NCBI GenBank assembly: GCA_050014195.1
Contig: JBEKDT010000020.1
Location: 1-64,000 of the forward strand
Length of the DNA: 64,000 nt
Direction of reading: 5' to 3'
Source of the DNA: Desulfomonilia bacterium
GTDB lineage: Bacteria; Desulfobacterota; Desulfomonilia; UBA1062
Shown: piece by piece, positions 1,784 through 6,114 of the stretch
Layout: each line of letters starts with the position of its first letter
Numbering within the stretch: the stretch's first letter is position 1
Notes under the pieces: generated by a model
The model's database searches: none
Told to the model about the DNA's origin: nothing
The model's input: only the letters and a program-made list of their open reading frames with translations
Translations under genes and position numbers: made by a program

Positions 1784-3181
1784 TTACCTGCGCCTGAACA
1801 GGTTCCAGTCAAGGTCGGGCCAGGGGTTGTCCACATCCTCGATCTGCTGCAGCGCCGCCTCTGAAAGCCTGCCATGGTCCGAGAGGTCCTTTGCGGCCCA
1901 GATGAGTTTCAAAAATCGCTGGTGGTGATGGTGGAAGCGCTGGTTGGCATATTCCTTGGCCTGGGTCGTAAAGAGGAGAAAGGGCCAGTCGCTTCCCTGC
2001 ATGAGGAGAAGCTCACGGGCCATCTGCCGCATGATGCGCTCTCCGCGATCATCGTTCGGCCGCACCTCTTTGAACAGCTGCTCCGCCTCTCTGGAACTCG
2101 CATTGATGTAGGGCCAGATCCAGCCGTGTTCGGGATTCTGCCAGACCGTATAATCCGAGTTCAGCCCCCAGGTGCTGGGCTGCATGATGATGGTTGAAAA
2201 TGCCCCGCCGTGCTGATCAACGTATTCGCCCTGGGCCCTTAATGAAACAGTCTTCTCCTTATCAAGCAGCCGGTAGACCTGTTCAAGCCAGTGCACGCCT
2301 TCGTGCCACCAGTGGCCGAACAGCTCGCAGTCGTATGGGGAAACGATAATGGGCTCTGTATCAGGGATGACGGTTCGATCGAGAATGCGGGTAATGAGTG
2401 AGACGAAATGCTGCGCATGACTCTCCACACGCTCATGTGCCTTCTTGGGCTCATAGACCTGTTTATCGTCCTGCCCGGTGACTCGAGAGTAATGCAATCC
2501 CGACTCGGGGTCCTTGCGGTGGAATTCAAGATAGAAAGGGTCTCCGGGGTAGCCCTGATCAGGGGACCATACCTGTTTGCCGGTTGCCTCATTGCGCCCG
2601 AACACCGAGACACCCGATGCCAGCTTATAACCGCGAAAAATGGTGGGGGCGGCTTCCTGATGGCGGTTTTCTCTGAAGGATGCGCGTGTAATGCCGACAT
2701 TCTCCGCAAAGAAGTACTCGATCCCCTCCCCGGCAAGCCACTCATCGATGCCCTTTCTCATGCGCTGCTCTCTGACCGACCACTCTGCCGGCCTGTAGGC
2801 GCACTCGGGCAGCCAGAACCCGCGTGGTAAGCGGCCGAAATAGCGCTTGTAGGTCTCAACACCTATGCGCACCTGGGCAAAGACCATGCTGTCTGATTCC
2901 ATAAGCGGCAGAAATCCATGGGTGGCTGCCGAGGTCAGAACCTCGATCACCCCTTCGTCCTGGAGCCATTTCAAGGTGCCCAGGATATCACGATAAAAGT
3001 CAGAGGTGTAGGCCTTGTAATTACTCTCAAAAAACTCCAACCAATACCGGGCGACCGAGCACAAGGCAGGGTCCGCCTGAAAGCGCCGTATGTCATTGCG
3101 GGCACGGTGTATCTTGTCTTCCATATAGGCACAGAAACGGCCTTTCATGTACTCGTCGGCGAGCTGTTCCATAAGTATCGG
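1784..3181 (-). pseudogene. GH57 1,4-alpha-glucan branching enzyme (DUF1957), C-terminal part, interrupted by IS
   Basis: GH57 motifs ATHGFLPL, GFWLPECAY, PYDCELFGHWWHEG, ARELLLMQGSDWPF. Joins in frame (PIL-MEQLAD) with 5711-5893 once the IS is removed. Confidence 0.92.
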
Positions 3182-3189
3182 GACGAGTC
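3182..3189. repeat. Target-site duplication, left copy (gacgagtc)
   Basis: Identical 8-mer at 5711-5718, each copy abutting a TIR. Confidence 0.93.
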
Positions 3190-3199
3190 GGTAGTGGGG

Positions 3200-4153
3200 T
3201 CATAATGTGTTGCTAGTAATTAATTCTTGGATCGTCCACACATGATCCGTGATTTTTGCTTCCATGCAGGGTGTTACCTTTAGCGTCGAGTGAATCCGGC
3301 AGAAATTGTAATAGGCAAATTGAAGTGCATAAGCCCATTTCAAATTCAGCCATTTTTTACTGAAGCCATTAGTCAGGCGTGTCATTCTCCGCATTGACAT
3401 ACGAACAGTCAAGTTTTGTCTTTCAATGTGAGATGTGGACGCCCTCTCTAAATCTGGATTCCCAAAAACGGCAATCTTCTCACATCCTACACACGTACTA
3501 GGCGAATATCGAGTTTCTTTATCCGAATTGCCTTGAAAGAGCTTAATAACTTGAGCGAAGTCTACAGATTGTGAGCCGAGACTATAAACAACTGCATCTC
3601 TGTATGGGGTAAAGCCATCAGTATTGATTTGGAAATTACCTTTTGTTGCTCGTGCCAGCTTTTCAGTAAAAGCGACTGTGTCCGTTACTGTTCTATGACC
3701 AAGATGCCATGCAAGAATAAGTTTAGTATGACGCTCCATACCAATAAAGCACCAGGCGTCCCCTTTTTGATTATCATTACATGCCTTGCGCGACTTCGTA
3801 CGAGCTTTCATTCCGACATATCCCCATATTTCATCACACGCACATTCTCTGATGCTCAGACCTTTAATTTTATCTTCCATTAATTTCTCGCATCGTTGGC
3901 CAACCAAGGACAACAATGTGAGGATTGTGCGCTTTTCGACGCCCGTGATTCTCTCTGTTGTCCTAATGCTGCATCCTTCTATGAGATGTTGAATAACAGA
4001 AACGGCCTTCTCCAAAGATAAACGCATATCATCAAGTGGCCTATGGTGAGGCTCAAGAAAGGTTTTCTTACAAGAGATACAGCGGAAACGCTGTAAGCCA
4101 TGCCTATCTTTTCCAAACCTATTTGCGTTTTGATTGCAGATTGGACAATTCAT
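3200..4153 (-). CDS. IS1-family DDE transposase (single ORF: zinc ribbon + HTH + DDE)
   Basis: CPIC...QRFRCISCKKTF zinc ribbon; EGCSIRTTERITGV HTH; CDEIW, NTDGF and TSHIERQNLTVR catalytic motifs; stop codon lies inside the TIR. Confidence 0.92.
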   Translation of the reverse strand: MNCPICNQNANRFGKDRHGLQRFRCISCKKTFLEPHHRPLDDMRLSLEKAVSVIQHLIEGCSIRTTERITGVEKRTILTLLSLVGQRCEKLMEDKIKGLSIRECACDEIWGYVGMKARTKSRKACNDNQKGDAWCFIGMERHTKLILAWHLGHRTVTDTVAFTEKLARATKGNFQINTDGFTPYRDAVVYSLGSQSVDFAQVIKLFQGNSDKETRYSPSTCVGCEKIAVFGNPDLERASTSHIERQNLTVRMSMRRMTRLTNGFSKKWLNLKWAYALQFAYYNFCRIHSTLKVTPCMEAKITDHVWTIQELITSNTL

Positions 4154-4173
4154 TTTTATCACCCCTACAACAC

Positions 4174-4202
4174 ACTATTACCGTTTTGCTAAAGCATGTC
4201 AA
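4174..4202 (-). promoter_or_regulatory. Putative sigma70 promoter of the transposase
   Basis: Minus strand TTGACA-N17-AATAGT, about 20 nt before the ATG with GGGGTGAT SD. Confidence 0.5.
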
Positions 4203-4252
4203 GAAAAAAATATTGAAATATAATTTTTTTGGTGCTATAAATCCGATAAAGA

Positions 4253-4326
4253 TGGAGCCCCCGACCAGATTCGAACTGGCGTCATAAGGGTTCGGGCCCT
4301 ACGCTCTTCCATTGAGCTACGGGGGC
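4253..4326 (-). tRNA. tRNA-like gene, 74 nt, encoded CCA, atypical anticodon loop (CCCGAAC; CGA at 34-36), identity undetermined
   Basis: GCCCCCG TA GCTC AATGGAA GAGC G TAGGG CCCGAAC CCTTA TGAC GCCAG TTCGAAT CTGGT CGGGGGC T CCA: all four stems pair, with GG in the D loop and a TTCGAAT T loop. Confidence 0.85.
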
Positions 4327-4335
4327 TATAGTTAG

Positions 4336-4386
4336 AGTGGATCAAGGTAAGGATTTGCCGTCAACACCTCCTATCCTTGATCCACT
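4336..4386. other. Long inverted repeat/hairpin between the passenger gene and the tRNA
   Basis: agtggatcaaggtaagga...tcctatccttgatccact (16/18 complementary, outer 12 perfect). Confidence 0.7.
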
Positions 4387-4399
4387 TTTTATTATTAGC

Positions 4400-5245
4400 T
4401 CATTGCTGAGATCCTCCCTTGGCTGTAATAACTTTAGCTAGCCCCTCGAATAAAGCCGCTATCCTGTCTGGTTGCCAGCCCTGCATTTCTGCCATTGCCA
4501 CTTTTATATTCACTGAAAATGTTATCCCATCTACTGAGGGTGGTAATGTGTCGTTGACATTTTGCTTCGGAGGCACATCATTAGAAGGTACATCGGGAGA
4601 AGGCGGAACATTTGTTTTAACAATAGTTCCGATGGTATTTCCATTGGGTCCAGGAGGGTTTACAGCACTAGACTTTACGATATTAATCATATCTCCTTCA
4701 CGCCTTACTATTCCAGAAAAAATAAGGAATTCTACTAATATTTGCAGTGGGGATTGATATTCTTTTGTTGCAGAAGATACTGCTGCCAGTTTAGCTATCA
4801 CTTCCTTTTCTGGCAATGGAGCGAATGATAATCTGTTCCGTATTTCTGTGGCAAACCAAGTGTCTTTTATTATCGGCGAAAGCTTCAAGCCTGCGGTATC
4901 AGGTCCCCATTCATAAGCATTATTGAAAGCAAAAACAGCTTCAGATGGGGTGTATCCATTGGGTCCTTTTATAATAAGACCTATGTCAGAAAAAAATGGG
5001 TTGGCAGTTGAAATTGATGCTGGATGAACTTTGAGCATATCGGCTAATGCTTGATTCATAACGGGCTTTCTATCATTACCGCTTAATATCGCATATGCCC
5101 GTATAAGATGAACCTGCTTTTCAAAAGAAAGCCTGTCTGACGGAAGTATCTTTGATGGTTTTGGCTTCTTTATTTTTTCTTGAATGTTGAGTTTTTCGGG
5201 TTCTGCCTCTTTGAGGACCTTATTCTCTTCCTTTATTTGTTCCAT
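4400..5245 (-). CDS. Hypothetical protein, IS passenger (possible winged-helix domains + Pro-rich linker + C-terminal helix)
   Basis: 281-aa ORF with AGGAGGT SD; ALADMLKVHPASISTANPFFSDIGLI resembles a wHTH. Confidence 0.7.
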   Translation of the reverse strand: MEQIKEENKVLKEAEPEKLNIQEKIKKPKPSKILPSDRLSFEKQVHLIRAYAILSGNDRKPVMNQALADMLKVHPASISTANPFFSDIGLIIKGPNGYTPSEAVFAFNNAYEWGPDTAGLKLSPIIKDTWFATEIRNRLSFAPLPEKEVIAKLAAVSSATKEYQSPLQILVEFLIFSGIVRREGDMINIVKSSAVNPPGPNGNTIGTIVKTNVPPSPDVPSNDVPPKQNVNDTLPPSVDGITFSVNIKVAMAEMQGWQPDRIAALFEGLAKVITAKGGSQQ

Positions 5246-5380
5246 CTTTACACCTCCTATAAAGACTAAATATTGCCGTCAATTTTCTTATCGCATAGAA
5301 CCGCAAATGAGTCAAGTGGATAATCGATGCGAAGCGATGTATTGTAGGTTATTGTAGGTTGATTTAATAATTAATTAATA

Positions 5381-5635
5381 TTATTGATTATTATTCTTGT
5401 CCCATCTCGCACGAGCCGCTTTTAGGGCTATTTCTTTCCGCTGCTCAGGGAGTAATTTCTTCTTGCGAGCCTTGCCGCTCCGAAGGCCACCTCTGCGGCC
5501 AGCCTTTACTCGATAATCAAGCTTCTCTGGTTTAGGGGCTGGTTCCTGGGGAATACCATCTCGCTCAGCATCACGCCTGATTATTTGTTGAAGAGCATCA
5601 AATGCGATTTGGTTTTCATCTTTGCGCTTTGGCAT
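5381..5635 (-). CDS. Small basic protein (GGxxxGKAR...PEQRKEIAxKAAxARW motif), IS passenger
   Basis: 84-aa Lys/Arg-rich ORF; TATAAT 6 nt upstream of the ATG and no SD. Confidence 0.75.
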   Translation of the reverse strand: MPKRKDENQIAFDALQQIIRRDAERDGIPQEPAPKPEKLDYRVKAGRRGGLRSGKARKKKLLPEQRKEIALKAARARWDKNNNQ

Positions 5636-5710
5636 ATCTGCATTATAGTGAAGATCATAATAAAGTGCATCTGTTATTTTAAGGCATCAACACTCTATGA
5701 CCCCACTACC

Positions 5711-5893
5711 GACGAGTCCGATCATCATCCTTGGATGAATCCCGTCGAAATGGAGTGCGCGCATGGTCTTCAGAAGCGGGATATACGTCTCATTCATGGC
5801 CTCAAAGAGCCACTCCTCACCCGCAGGCCATACCCCTGATTTGCGGCAATAGGGGATATGGCTGTGCAGCATCAATGCAAAGATACCCTTCAT
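5711..5893 (-). pseudogene. GH57 branching enzyme, N-terminal 61 codons
   Basis: MKGIFALMLHSHIPY...GEEWLFEAMNETYIPLL (GH57 CSR-1 HSH and E-x-Y motifs); the TSD copy lies at 5711-5718. Confidence 0.92.
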
Positions 5894-6114
5894 CTATCCA
5901 TCCTTATGTATCAATCATGAGAAAGCCTTATATCCCACAGAATCGACGCCGGCCAGATGGATGTCCAAATTCAGGGCAGCCGAGGTCTTTCATCATATGT
6001 ATCCGAATATCCCTGCATCCTCTCTGCGGTTCTTGCTTGAAGCACCGAGCCTTTCGGTTTATTAAAGGTTAAGGGGCTTTAAAAGATACATTTTGTTTTA
6101 ATATCAATATCGAT

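What the first reader, a model, noticed from the sequence alone, without database searches (positions are those of the whole stretch)
4253..4326. IS-borne tRNA with intact cloverleaf but a non-canonical anticodon loop and conflicting identity elements
Seen: 74 nt with all stems paired, a 4-nt variable loop, U73, A15/C48, A20 and encoded CCA. The anticodon loop is CCCGAAC: C33 replaces the near-invariant U33 and positions 34-36 read CGA (Ser), yet there is no long variable arm, which SerRS requires. An alternative register gives a 6-nt loop CCCGAA (Arg CCG-like), and the A at -1 could pair with U73. Known: 74-nt length, short variable loop and U73 are typical of tRNA-Gly; A20 is an Arg determinant. 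Inference: preserved stems with only the loop altered suggest selection for a tRNA shape with non-standard or no decoding, e.g. a missense/frameshift suppressor, a decoy for anticodon nucleases or acceptor-end toxins, or a processing signal.
Basis: partly seen in the sequence, partly recalled or inferred. Interest (0 to 1): 0.85.

Follow-up and report, generated by a model that had tools for sequence, protein, structure and literature searches.

The report
Odd tRNA carried inside a transposon
A well-folded but mis-wired tRNA-like gene sits inside a 2.5-kb jumping gene, and relatives of this jumping gene in other bacteria carry similar odd tRNAs at the same spot, so the RNA probably serves the element rather than ordinary protein synthesis.

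Summary
It is not an assembly error: three metagenome contigs and contigs of four runs give the same letters. It is truly IS-borne. Empty sites in three congeners define a 2,521-bp IS1-family transposon (3190-5710) with 23-bp inverted repeats and an 8-bp target duplication.

The genome already has a full canonical tRNA set, so this one is extra. Its body is tRNA-Arg-like.

Related transposase genes often have a tRNA just upstream on the same strand: 10 of 38 loci by Rfam's gathering score. Another eight carry an Ala/tmRNA-like mini-tRNA. Stems covary and stay paired (97.6% of cells), while anticodon loops are altered. The elements' own transposases use the cognate Ser codons at invariant Ser sites, which argues against missense decoding.

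Best reading: a structurally selected, probably non-decoding tRNA-like module of an undescribed IS1-type transposon lineage. A role as an RNA-processing or insulating signal ahead of the transposase promoter is inferred, not shown. Expression could not be tested. The nearest precedent is Mukai et al. 2017.

The parts
3182..3189 (.). Target-site duplication, copy 1 (GACGAGTC)
   Evidence: Present once at the empty site of G003:C9 (L089) and twice in the window, flanking the insert.
3190..3212 (+). Terminal inverted repeat on the transposase side (GGTAGTGGGGTCATAATGTGTTG)
   Evidence: Matches the reverse complement of 5688-5710 at 21 of 23 positions. The same GGTAGTGGG... start bounds the G003 element and many other family members.
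3200..4162 (-). IS1-family transposase, 320 aa (P0001), single ORF with an N-terminal Zn ribbon
   Evidence: Pfam DDE_Tnp_IS1 30 bits against a cut-off of 24.1. NCBIfam IS1/IS1595 Zn domain 36.8 bits against 28. The NCBIfam transpos_IS1 equivalog scores 85.1, below its cut-off of 100. It is 45% identical to the G003 element's transposase.
4168..4182 (.). Internal repeat resembling the inner part of the terminal repeats (GGTAATAGTGTGTTG on the minus strand), between the promoter-like site and the transposase start
   Evidence: the repeat finder pair I7, 87% complementary to 3198-3212. Reading it as a transposase-binding or operator site is my inference.
4174..4202 (-). Promoter-like site for the transposase (TTGACA, 17 nt, AATAGT)
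   Evidence: Consensus scan, 10 of 12 matches. The CTTGACA motif is shared with the other family members just upstream of their transposase genes.
4253..4326 (-). The 74-nt tRNA-like gene: Arg-like body, loop CCCGAAC, U73, encoded CCA
   Evidence: covariation and constraint; nearest canonical tRNAs.
4336..4386 (.). Hairpin with an 18-bp stem between ORF2 and the tRNA-like gene
   Evidence: the repeat finder pair I2. RNAfold gives -28.7 kcal/mol. A strong hairpin lies 10-35 nt upstream of each of the 10 element-borne tRNAs examined.
4400..5245 (-). ORF2, 281 aa (P0002): tandem winged-helix protein of a large unnamed family
   Evidence: No hit in Pfam, NCBIfam or PADLOC. The representative library holds 779 clusters at E<=1e-3. 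The AlphaFold2 model has mean pLDDT 84.8. The best Foldseek matches are SelB winged-helix domains 2-4 with SECIS RNA (E 8.6e-5, TM only 0.21-0.28) and the BpuJI DNA-recognition domain.
5381..5635 (-). ORF1, 84 aa: small basic protein found at this end of every bracketed family member
   Evidence: Aligns with the 77-98-aa ORF1 of nine other elements, sharing the motif ...GG.KGGKAR..KL.PE.R.EIA.KAA.ARW. The homologue on a Mesorhizobium loti plasmid is annotated 'histone H1'.
5654..5682 (-). Promoter-like site just inside the repeat (TTAAAA, 17 nt, TATGAT), facing ORF1, ORF2 and the tRNA-like gene
   Evidence: Consensus scan, 9 of 12 matches. This is a consensus match only.
5688..5710 (-). Terminal inverted repeat on the ORF1 side
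5711..5718 (.). Target-site duplication, copy 2 (GACGAGTC)

Best explanation
Shown. The 74-nt gene is a passenger of a 2,521-bp IS1-family transposon (3190-5710). The element's layout, reading along its coding strand, is:
- inverted repeat
- small basic ORF1
- winged-helix ORF2
- hairpin
- tRNA-like gene
- promoter/operator
- transposase
- inverted repeat

The tRNA-like gene descends from a tRNA-Arg. It has the Arg-type A20, the acceptor stem of the host's tRNA-Arg(CCU), and an anticodon stem close to that of the host's tRNA-Arg(CCG). Its anticodon loop no longer presents an Arg anticodon. The cloverleaf has been kept by selection after that change.

Related elements across the phylum carry other irregular tRNAs at the same position.

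Inferred. The RNA does not decode. It works as a tRNA-shaped structural module for the element. The most likely role is as a processing and insulating signal, in these steps:
1. It is transcribed with or after ORF1-ORF2.
2. It is cut out by the host's tRNA-maturation enzymes (RNase P at the 5' end, a 3' endonuclease at the other).
3. Upstream transcription is thereby uncoupled from the transposase mRNA, which starts at its own regulated promoter 50-60 nt downstream.

Any tRNA shape would serve this role. That would explain why the type of tRNA varies between elements while the position and the fold are constant.
For: Inside a mobile unit:
- Empty sites in 3 of 3 congeners that hold the flanking GH57 locus and were compared, with an 8-bp duplication and 21/23 inverted repeats.
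- The homologous tRNA-like gene of G003 (83% identical) lies inside a 2,889-bp element with the same repeat start and its own 8-bp duplication. G000 holds the empty site of that element.

Extra to the cell's needs:
- The genome has 52 tRNA genes, including a normal 91-nt tRNA-Ser(CGA), five tRNA-Arg and three tRNA-Gly.

Arg origin:
-.

Structural selection:
- Six class-I element-borne tRNAs pair in 97.6% of 126 cells.
- 14 of 21 pairs change on both sides, and 0 of 500 shuffles reach that value.
- Window versus G003, which share the odd CGA loop: 2 differences in 42 stem columns against 11 in 32 loop columns, binomial P 0.003.

Recurrent position:
- 10 of 38 full-length transposase loci have an Rfam-grade tRNA on the same strand within 350 nt upstream. 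My arithmetic from the tRNA density expects about 0.1.
- All 8 loci of a second transposase clade have a mini tRNA-like 34-60 nt before the start codon.
- Carriage is spread over the transposase tree.
- For six elements the inverted-repeat motifs bracket the tRNA.

Against decoding:
- C33 in 2 of 6.
- A Ser anticodon without a long variable arm.
- UCG or AGY codons at Ser columns conserved in 23-26 of 26 homologues of the elements' own transposases.
Against: - No expression, processing or aminoacylation data exist. No listed run holding this DNA is on record as RNA.
- A pure processing signal needs only the acceptor and T arms, yet the class-I members also keep their D and anticodon stems.
- All six class-I members keep A20, and four keep C35-U36. 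These are ArgRS determinants (rule recalled), which hints that charging may matter.
- A hairpin that looks like a terminator lies between ORF2 and the tRNA, so co-transcription with ORF1-ORF2 is not assured. No convincing promoter for the tRNA itself was found.
- Many family members lack a tRNA: 20 of 38 loci have neither a tRNA nor a mini tRNA-like, and 0 of 4 plasmid copies in cultured Alphaproteobacteria have one. The module is therefore dispensable for transposition.
- The six class-I tRNAs may not all be homologous, so part of the covariation only shows that each one is an intact tRNA.
Confidence: 0.45

Rival explanations
1. Neutral hitch-hiker. A tRNA-Arg gene was picked up with other cargo, lost its anticodon, and is slowly decaying without any function for the element or the cell.
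For: - The window copy has C33 and an A15/C48 pair in place of the G15/C48 seen in G003.
- G003 has a C31/C39 mismatch and no encoded CCA.
- The module is missing from many family members.
- Truncated tRNA halves occur beside related genes in L016 and L023.
Against: - After the loop was altered, in the ancestor shared by the window and G003 copies, changes avoided the stems: 2 against 11, P 0.003.
- The window and G103 copies differ at 16 stem positions, yet 100% of their acceptor, D and T cells and 90% of anticodon-stem cells still pair.
- Irregular tRNAs recur at one fixed position in distant branches of the transposase tree.
Confidence: 0.2
2. Cofactor or sensor. The tRNA-like RNA is bound by the element's own nucleic-acid-binding proteins (ORF1, ORF2 or the transposase), or is charged by a host synthetase that ignores position 34 (ArgRS for the class-I forms, AlaRS through G3-U70 for the mini forms). 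In this way it would couple transposase expression or activity to the cell's translational state.
For: - All 6 class-I members keep A20, and 4 keep C35-U36 while only position 34 differs from an Arg anticodon.
- All 8 mini forms have G3-U70 and A73, by my reading.
- ORF2 folds as tandem winged helices whose best structural matches are the RNA-hairpin-binding domains of SelB.
- ORF1 is conserved in every bracketed element.
Against: - The structural match is weak (TM 0.21-0.28) and winged helices mostly bind DNA.
- ORF2 is not the same family in all tRNA-bearing elements.
- The window and G003 copies lack C35 in the normal register.
- No binding or charging data exist.
Confidence: 0.15
3. Decoy or antidote. 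The RNA soaks up, or replaces the target of, a tRNA-directed toxin or defence nuclease. Candidates would be an anticodon nuclease specific for tRNA-Arg or an enzyme that modifies the acceptor end. The effect would protect the host of the element.
For: - Arg-like body with an altered anticodon loop.
- Mukai et al. 2017 report irregular tRNAs near toxin-antitoxin systems and a transposon-related protein in soil and peat sequences (PMC5389517, section 16 read).
- One plasmid copy of the element family lies beside a RES/Xre toxin-antitoxin pair, and another lies about 2.4 kb from a Shedu nuclease gene.
Against: - No toxin or defence family was detected among the passenger proteins of the window, G003 or G103 elements. 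PADLOC and NCBIfam gave no hits, except one weak PADLOC match for the G103 ORF2 at E 0.0022.
- The tRNA types differ widely between elements, which a single toxin target would not predict.
Confidence: 0.12
4. Active decoding tRNA. It would be a missense tRNA reading UCG (AGY in relatives) with a non-Ser amino acid, or a frameshift suppressor.
For: - The cloverleaf is intact, the T loop is canonical, position 37 is a purine and CCA is encoded.
- The six class-I members all carry Ser anticodons: CGA twice, GCU twice, ACU twice.
- Two of the four UCG codons of the window transposase fall in columns where 25 of 26 and 18 of 26 homologues have Pro. This may be an alignment effect in a divergent stretch.
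Against: - C33 replaces the near-universal U33.
- There is no long variable arm for SerRS, and no full identity set for Arg, Gly or Thr (rules recalled).
- All loops are 7 nt, not the 8 nt usual for frameshift suppressors.
- The cognate codons sit at invariant or near-invariant Ser columns of the elements' own transposases, and ORF1 shows no recoding pattern.
- Six allo-tRNA(UAU) species tested by Mukai et al. were inactive in E. coli translation (PMC5389517, section 16).
Confidence: 0.08

Closest known systems
Irregular tRNAs and allo-tRNA(UAU) of soil and peat bacteria (Mukai et al. 2017, Nucleic Acids Res 45:2776, PMC5389517; section 16 read, plus 'find' passages of the paper and of the review PMC7609411)
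   Same: - tRNA-shaped genes whose anticodon disagrees with their identity elements.
- Found in peat and soil metagenomes.
- Seen beside a 'transposon-related protein' and toxin-antitoxin genes.
- Sometimes in tandem.
- Several were inactive in translation, and the authors proposed that they are not used for decoding.
- Two elements here (G158, G256) carry class-II tRNAs with a UAU anticodon.
   Different: - The window's tRNA has the ordinary 7/5 acceptor/T arrangement and a short variable region, not the 8/4 or 9/3 form with a long arm.
- In what I read, that paper does not define the mobile element, its ends or a fixed position of the tRNA. I could not see its figures or supplements, so an overlap with this IS family cannot be excluded.
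IS1 family insertion sequences, single-ORF forms that carry passenger genes (my recollection of ISfinder's grouping; not checked by any search)
   Same: - DDE_Tnp_IS1 domain with an N-terminal Zn ribbon.
- Inverted repeats that start with GGT.
- An 8-bp target duplication.
- Homologues on plasmids are annotated 'IS1 family transposase'.
   Different: - No insA/insB frameshift; the transposase is one ORF.
- The score is below NCBIfam's IS1 equivalog cut-off.
- The element is 2-3.5 kb and carries a conserved small basic ORF, a variable second ORF and often a tRNA-like gene. No tRNA cargo is mentioned in any paper found by my searches.
tRNA genes carried by phages and tRNA arrays
   Same: Extra tRNA genes on mobile DNA, some with unusual anticodon loops. 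My pattern scans found class-I CGA tRNAs in a viral contig (L028) and in an actinomycete tRNA array (L024, loop CCCGAAG).
   Different: Those sit in clusters on large elements and are generally read as supplying codons or evading tRNA-directed defence. Here a single tRNA lies at a fixed place in a 2-3-kb DDE transposon, and codon supply is not supported.
Non-decoding tRNA-like RNAs: tRNA-Other of Bacillus cereus (cited in PMC5389517) and tRNA-like 3'-end processing signals such as mascRNA of MALAT1 (recalled)
   Same: A tRNA fold used for something other than decoding. In the second case the fold serves as an RNase P cleavage signal that separates two RNAs.
   Different: No sequence relation. 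The processing role is only inferred here.
RNAs encoded by insertion elements and used by their recombinases: the bridge RNA of IS110 and the omega RNA of IS200/IS605 (recalled)
   Same: A structured non-coding RNA encoded next to the recombinase gene inside an IS.
   Different: Those RNAs base-pair with target or donor DNA. No such complementarity was found or sought here, and the transposase is an ordinary DDE enzyme with protein-recognised inverted repeats.

Membership tests
tRNA (Rfam RF00005), general fold | Cloverleaf scoring above the family's gathering score | tested here: met
   59 bits against 29, model positions 1-71 of 71. ARAGORN also calls it.
Canonical elongator tRNA | U33 and a 7-nt anticodon loop with a purine at position 37 | tested here: not met
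   The loop is CCCGAAC: 7 nt with A37, but C33. The homologue in G003 has U33, and the one in G103 has C33.
tRNA-Ser | Long variable arm (class II), with G73 in this genome's Ser tRNAs | tested here: not met
   The variable region is 4 nt and the discriminator is U73. The genome's four tRNA-Ser genes are 88-93 nt and end in GCCA.
tRNA-Arg | A20 in the D loop | tested here: met
   The D loop is AAUGGAA. In this genome an A directly after G18G19 occurs in all five tRNA-Arg genes and in none of the other tRNAs I read.
tRNA-Arg | C35 with G36 or U36 (identity rule recalled) | tested here: not met
   Positions 34-36 read CGA. CCG appears only one position to the 5' side. Four relatives (G103, G318, G319, G482) do keep C35-U36.
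tRNA-Arg | Overall likeness to canonical tRNA-Arg | tested here: met
   The three best own-genome matches are Arg(ACG), Arg(CCG) and Arg(CCU) at 76-77%. The acceptor stem is identical to that of tRNA-Arg(CCU). tRNAscan-SE isotype models were not available.
tRNA-Gly | U73, G1-C72, C2-G71, G3-C70, C35, C36 (rule recalled) | tested here: not met
   U73, G1-C72 and C2-G71 are present. Pair 3-70 is C-G and positions 35-36 are GA.
Frameshift-suppressor tRNA | Enlarged (8-nt) anticodon loop | tested here: not met
   The loop is 7 nt in all six class-I members.
tRNA pseudogene in decay | Substitutions spread over stems and loops alike, with broken pairs | tested here: not met
   97.6% of cells are paired across the six sequences. 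Window versus G003 shows 2 stem against 11 loop differences, P 0.003.
Allo-tRNA (Mukai et al. 2017) | 8/4 or 9/3 acceptor/T arrangement with a long variable arm | tested here: not met
   The window's tRNA has a 7-bp acceptor stem, a 5-bp T stem and a 4-nt variable region.
IS1 family insertion sequence | DDE_Tnp_IS1 catalytic domain and N-terminal zinc-binding domain | tested here: met
   Pfam PF03400 scores 30 bits against 24.1. NF050000 scores 36.8 against 28.
IS1 family insertion sequence | NCBIfam equivalog model transpos_IS1 | tested here: not met
   85.1 bits against a cut-off of 100. It is a distant member or a sister group.
IS1 family insertion sequence | Terminal inverted repeats and a short target duplication (8-9 bp for IS1, recalled) | tested here: met
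   23-bp repeats matching at 21 of 23 positions, and an 8-bp duplication proven by empty sites. The same holds for the G003 element.
IS1 family insertion sequence | insA/insB arrangement with a programmed -1 frameshift | tested here: not met
   One uninterrupted 320-aa ORF.

The most novel reading that the evidence does not exclude
This IS1-type lineage has made a tRNA-shaped RNA an integral working part of the element. The class-I forms would be chargeable by ArgRS and the mini forms by AlaRS. The RNA would be bound by the element's small basic or winged-helix proteins, or by the transposase. Through it the element would read the cell's aminoacylation or translation state, or recruit tRNA-processing enzymes, to decide when transposase is made. 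That would be a third kind of IS-encoded functional RNA, beside the bridge RNAs of IS110 and the omega RNAs of IS200/IS605.
Probability: 0.15. Interest if true: 0.9.

Novelty: new variant of a known kind. Interest (0 to 1): 0.68.

Why it matters
Insertion sequences are usually thought to carry little beyond a transposase. Here a family of small DDE transposons, found in peat and sediment bacteria and on plasmids of cultured Alphaproteobacteria, repeatedly carries irregular tRNA-shaped genes at one fixed position.

This gives a defined genetic home, with exact ends, to the 'irregular tRNAs' that were seen in peat metagenomes in 2017 and never explained. It also offers a small cassette of 2-3 kb in which their function can be tested by deletion and compensatory mutation.

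If the RNA insulates or regulates transposase expression, it is a new way for a mobile element to use the host's tRNA machinery. If it is charged and decodes, small transposons would be vectors of mistranslation.

There is a practical point as well. Automatic annotation calls this gene 'tRNA-Ser(CGA)', which is almost certainly wrong.

Tried and rejected
Assembly error: rejected.

tRNA outside the IS: I first took the 15-nt repeat pair 3198-3212 / 4168-4182 for the IS ends. That would have put the tRNA 70 nt outside. The empty-site comparison showed that the true ends are 3190 and 5710. The inner repeat is an internal site.

Target preference instead of cargo: considered because the G003 element lies 16 nt from tRNA-Leu(CAG), and the G066 element lies about 58 nt from a tRNA-Lys. 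This may be a real insertion bias. It does not explain tRNAs that lie between the inverted repeats.

Codon supply or recoding: rejected for the transposases. There is no sign of it in ORF1.

Shared upstream protein: ORF2 of the window and of G103 are not detectably related by BLASTP (best E 0.045). The G103 ORF2 has only a sub-threshold DUF5343 match.

The P0002 family as the tRNA's partner: only 2 of 401 genomes of the phylum sample hold a member, and the second (L123) has no tRNA beside it.

Closer relatives of the window's transposase: none in 401 genomes of the phylum sample. The best hits are 44-46% identical.

Plasmid copies: ARAGORN finds a tRNA in 0 of 4.

RNA evidence: no RNA holder is listed among the 24 runs that hold the stretch, so expression is untested. 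The laid DNA contigs showed no empty-site joint.

Rows dropped before counts: transposase matches that were truncated, at contig ends or partial were left out of the 38-locus tally. These are L062, L063, L067-L071, L074-L076, L078, L079, L103, L110-L112, L114, L117 and L118. L092 was kept in the tally although its transposase frame holds one in-frame TGA, and it was left out of the codon columns and the tree.

The mini tRNA-likes of the second clade do not reach Rfam's gathering score (0 of 8), and ARAGORN calls only 2 of the 8. Their description rests on my reading, and on a sub-threshold tmRNA match of 27.3 bits against 47.

Literature: searches found no paper describing tRNA cargo in IS1-family elements. 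One search was mis-set (min_terms 1) and gave nothing useful. Supplementary files and figures of PMC5389517 were not seen and may show the same transposase family.

Full report
1. THE OBSERVATION

ARAGORN finds a single tRNA in the 64-kb window, at 4253-4326 on the minus strand, and labels it Ser (cga). Rfam's tRNA model matches 4256-4326 end to end at 59 bits, against a gathering score of 29.

Read from the reverse complement, every item in the finding is present:
- four fully paired stems, with two G-U pairs
- a 7-nt D loop with A15 and A20
- a 4-nt variable region ending in C48
- U73, an encoded CCA, and A at position -1
- the loop CCCGAAC, that is C33 with CGA at positions 34-36

The letters are not an assembly slip. 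Three metagenome contigs are identical to the window over the 344 nt compared. Contigs of four DNA runs show no differing letter over 2800-6100, although three of these runs may be the source of the assembly.

2. IT IS AN EXTRA GENE

The window's genome has 29 contigs and 4.22 Mb. It holds 52 tRNA genes and a tmRNA. Among them are a normal 91-nt tRNA-Ser(CGA), five tRNA-Arg and three tRNA-Gly. The stretch 3000-4600 occurs once in the assembly.

3. IT LIES INSIDE A TRANSPOSON

Directly downstream on the same strand is a 320-aa transposase. It has the IS1 DDE domain and an IS1/IS1595-type zinc ribbon.

I first mistook an inner repeat (4168-4182) for the IS end. The decisive test was the empty site. 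The neighbouring GH57 gene has orthologues in G003, G002 and G007, and in all three the window's 3190-5710 is missing.

At the junctions the 8 bp GACGAGTC is present once in G003 and twice in the window. The insert is bounded by 23-bp inverted repeats that match at 21 of 23 positions.

The 2,521-bp element has all its genes on the minus strand. In order along that strand:
- a promoter-like site just inside the repeat
- ORF1, 84 aa, very basic
- ORF2, 281 aa
- a hairpin with an 18-bp stem
- the tRNA-like gene
- a TTGACA-type promoter-like site and the inner repeat
- the transposase

4. HOMOLOGUES OF THE tRNA

Among 41 related genomes the only close match is in G003: 83% identical, 76 nt, loop CUCGAAA, A73, no CCA. 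The weaker matches, at 74-76%, are the tRNA-Arg(CCU) genes.

The G003 copy also lies upstream of an IS1-type transposase that is 45% identical in protein. It sits inside a 2,889-bp element with the same repeat start (GGTAGTGGG...) and its own 8-bp duplication. The empty site of that element is present in the window's genome, 16 nt from tRNA-Leu(CAG).

A third member, in G103, has the same acceptor stem GCCCCCG/CGGGGGC and a similar downstream spacer. Its D, anticodon and T stems differ but all still pair, and its loop is CCGCUAA: C33 again, with anticodon GCU.

5. THE WIDER FAMILY

I searched the transposase in 122 genomes of the class and in 401 genomes of the phylum. I then scanned the 38 loci that hold a full-length match with Rfam at gathering score. 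Truncated matches were left out; they are listed under Tried and rejected.

Ten of the 38 loci have a tRNA on the transposase strand within 350 nt upstream:

| Type | Anticodon | Genomes |
|---|---|---|
| class I | CGA | window, G003 |
| class I | GCU | G103, G318 |
| class I | ACU | G319, G482 |
| class II | UAU | G158, G256 |
| class II | UAG | G066, G336 |

From the tRNA density, I expect about 0.1 such cases by chance (my arithmetic).

A second transposase clade has eight loci. Each carries, 34-60 nt before the start codon, a mini tRNA-like with a 7-bp acceptor stem, G3-U70, A73 and a canonical T arm. This is my reading. ARAGORN calls only two of the eight, as 'Pyl cta' and 'Stop tta'. None reaches Rfam's gathering score, and one gives a sub-threshold tmRNA match.

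The inverted-repeat motif brackets the tRNA in the window, G003, G066, G318, G319 and G336.

All ten bracketed elements share ORF1, a small basic protein. A strong hairpin precedes each of the ten tRNAs.

tRNA carriage is scattered over the transposase tree.

Four plasmid copies in cultured Alphaproteobacteria have ORF1 (annotated 'histone H1' in one record) and the transposase, but no tRNA.

6. WHAT KIND OF tRNA IT IS

In this genome an A directly after G18G19 is found only in the five tRNA-Arg genes, by my reading. All six class-I element-borne tRNAs have it.

The window's acceptor stem equals that of the host's tRNA-Arg(CCU). Its anticodon stem (UAGGG) is one letter from that of tRNA-Arg(CCG) (UAGGC), which the G003 copy matches exactly. 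The three nearest own-genome tRNAs are all Arg, at 76-77%.

Four relatives keep C35-U36 and differ from an Arg anticodon only at position 34. The two CGA forms look like an Arg N-C-G loop that has lost one letter. In the window CCG sits at positions 33-35, and in G003 UCG does. This last step is inference.

The result is that every one of the six presents a Ser anticodon on a body that SerRS should not accept, because it has no long arm (rule recalled).

7. SELECTION

The six sequences pair in 97.6% of 126 stem cells. Fourteen of 21 pairs change on both sides. None of 500 shuffles, and no slid register, comes close.

Any six intact tRNAs would covary like this, so the sharper test is the closest pair. 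The window and G003 copies share the odd loop and differ at 2 of 42 stem columns against 11 of 32 loop columns (P 0.003). The fold was therefore kept after the anticodon was lost. A simple decaying pseudogene is not supported.

8. DECODING

If these RNAs inserted anything but Ser, they would damage their own element.
- One UCG codon of the window's transposase, and one of G003's, lie in columns where 25 of 26 and 23 of 26 homologues have Ser.
- The AGY codons of G103, G318, G319 and G482 include columns that are Ser in 25-26 of 26 homologues.
- ORF1 shows no recoding pattern.
- All loops are 7 nt, which does not fit a frameshift suppressor.

Together with C33, this makes a decoding role unlikely, though not excluded.

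The class-II UAG tRNAs may be ordinary tRNA-Leu: their CUA codons fall on Leu columns.

9. PASSENGER PROTEINS

Neither ORF1 nor ORF2 matches Pfam, NCBIfam or PADLOC.

ORF2 belongs to a large unnamed family with 779 representative clusters, which is rare in this phylum (2 of 401 genomes). Its model, with mean pLDDT 84.8, is two winged-helix domains followed by a C-terminal helix. The best matches are SelB's SECIS-binding winged helices and the BpuJI DNA-recognition domain, with low TM-scores.

Both passenger proteins therefore look like nucleic-acid binders. Nothing ties them to the tRNA directly.

10. MECHANISM

Shown:
- the cargo status
- the fixed position
- the Arg origin
- the structural constraint
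- the codon argument against missense decoding

Inferred: the RNA is a non-decoding module.

The reading I favour (confidence 0.45) is a processing and insulating signal. Host tRNA-maturation enzymes would excise it, separating upstream transcripts from the transposase mRNA, which has its own promoter/operator 50-60 nt downstream. This reading explains why very different tRNA types, down to acceptor-plus-T-arm minis, occupy the same slot.

Points against it:
- intact D and anticodon stems
- retained synthetase determinants
- a terminator-like hairpin upstream
- the module's absence from many copies

The rivals are neutral cargo (0.2), a cofactor or sensor (0.15), a decoy or antidote (0.12) and a decoding tRNA (0.08).

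Expression could not be examined. No run holding the stretch is on record as RNA.

11. COMPARISON WITH WHAT IS KNOWN

Mukai et al. 2017 (PMC5389517; section 16 read, passages; review PMC7609411, passages) describe the following:
- irregular tRNAs and allo-tRNA(UAU) in soil and peat sequences
- one of them overlapping a 'transposon-related protein'
- others near toxin-antitoxin genes, some in tandem
- several inactive in E. coli translation

The present case adds a defined IS1-type transposon lineage with exact ends, a fixed slot for the tRNA, an Arg-derived class-I form with C33, and evidence of structural selection. My literature searches found no description of tRNA cargo in IS1-family elements. 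I could not see that paper's figures or supplements.

I therefore file this as a new variant of a known kind.

Noticed in passing
L064, L065, L072, L073, L077, L107, L108, L109 (about 190 nt upstream of each transposase start): A second transposase clade is preceded by a conserved RNA-like region of about 180 nt. It has shared blocks (...GGGGCCATAA..GCGAAG.CCC, a hairpin, then GGGNCGTGGCGATTC) followed by a mini tRNA-like with G3-U70, A73 and anticodon-like loops such as CUCUACA and AUUUACA. One gives a sub-threshold tmRNA match.
   Followed up: partly
L060 (G066) and L101 (G336), directly after their class-II tRNAs: A second tRNA-like sequence follows the first in tandem inside the element. 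This recalls the 'polycistrons of irregular tRNAs' of Mukai et al. 2017.
   Followed up: no
L011 8813-8915 (G003) and L060 (G066): Two elements of the family sit next to host tRNA genes: 16 nt from tRNA-Leu(CAG), and about 58 nt from a tRNA-Lys. This may be an insertion bias towards tRNA genes.
   Followed up: partly
G000 contig C14:93124-93215: ARAGORN reports a 92-nt 'tRNA-???' with a two-letter anticodon. It may be another irregular tRNA in the same genome.
   Followed up: no
G000 contigs C1:336970-337041 and C4:205682-205757: There are two extra tRNA-Gln(CUG)-like genes besides the one at C1:359242. One lacks CCA and has a divergent acceptor stem. They may be island-border copies.
   Followed up: no
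G000 contig C26:4713-4876: A fragment of a G003-type transposase of the same family: 49% identical over residues 263-315 of P0001, and 80.6% identical in DNA to the G003 copy.
   Followed up: no
L092 (G158:C278): The transposase frame next to a class-II UAU tRNA holds one in-frame TGA at codon 47. I did not resolve whether the gene is broken or read through.
   Followed up: no
L017, L022, L024, L025 (genome contigs) and L028 (viral contig): Class-I tRNAs with a CGA anticodon occur rarely elsewhere. ARAGORN calls five full ones among the 15 stretches found in 185,579 species, and one of the five is G003. One of them lies in an actinomycete tRNA array and has the C33 loop CCCGAAG. Another lies in a phage tRNA cluster. 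None of these loci holds the transposase.
   Followed up: partly
L016 (Alphaproteobacteria MAG) and L023 (Syntrophorhabdus MAG): L016 has a transposase of the family with a truncated tRNA 5' half about 190 nt downstream. L023 has an ORF1 homologue and, 1.9 kb further on the same strand, a truncated GCCCCCG-type tRNA half. They look like decayed or interrupted elements.
   Followed up: no
window 4400-5245 (P0002): ORF2 belongs to a large protein family with no name in Pfam, NCBIfam or PADLOC: 779 representative clusters at E<=1e-3, lengths about 260-300 aa, tandem winged helices. Only 2 of 401 genomes of this phylum hold it, so the element was probably acquired from another phylum.
   Followed up: partly
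window 3190-5710: The element has 41.5% G+C. The genome's contigs range from 46 to 54%, and the window's own contig is 49.6%. This is consistent with foreign origin.
   Followed up: no
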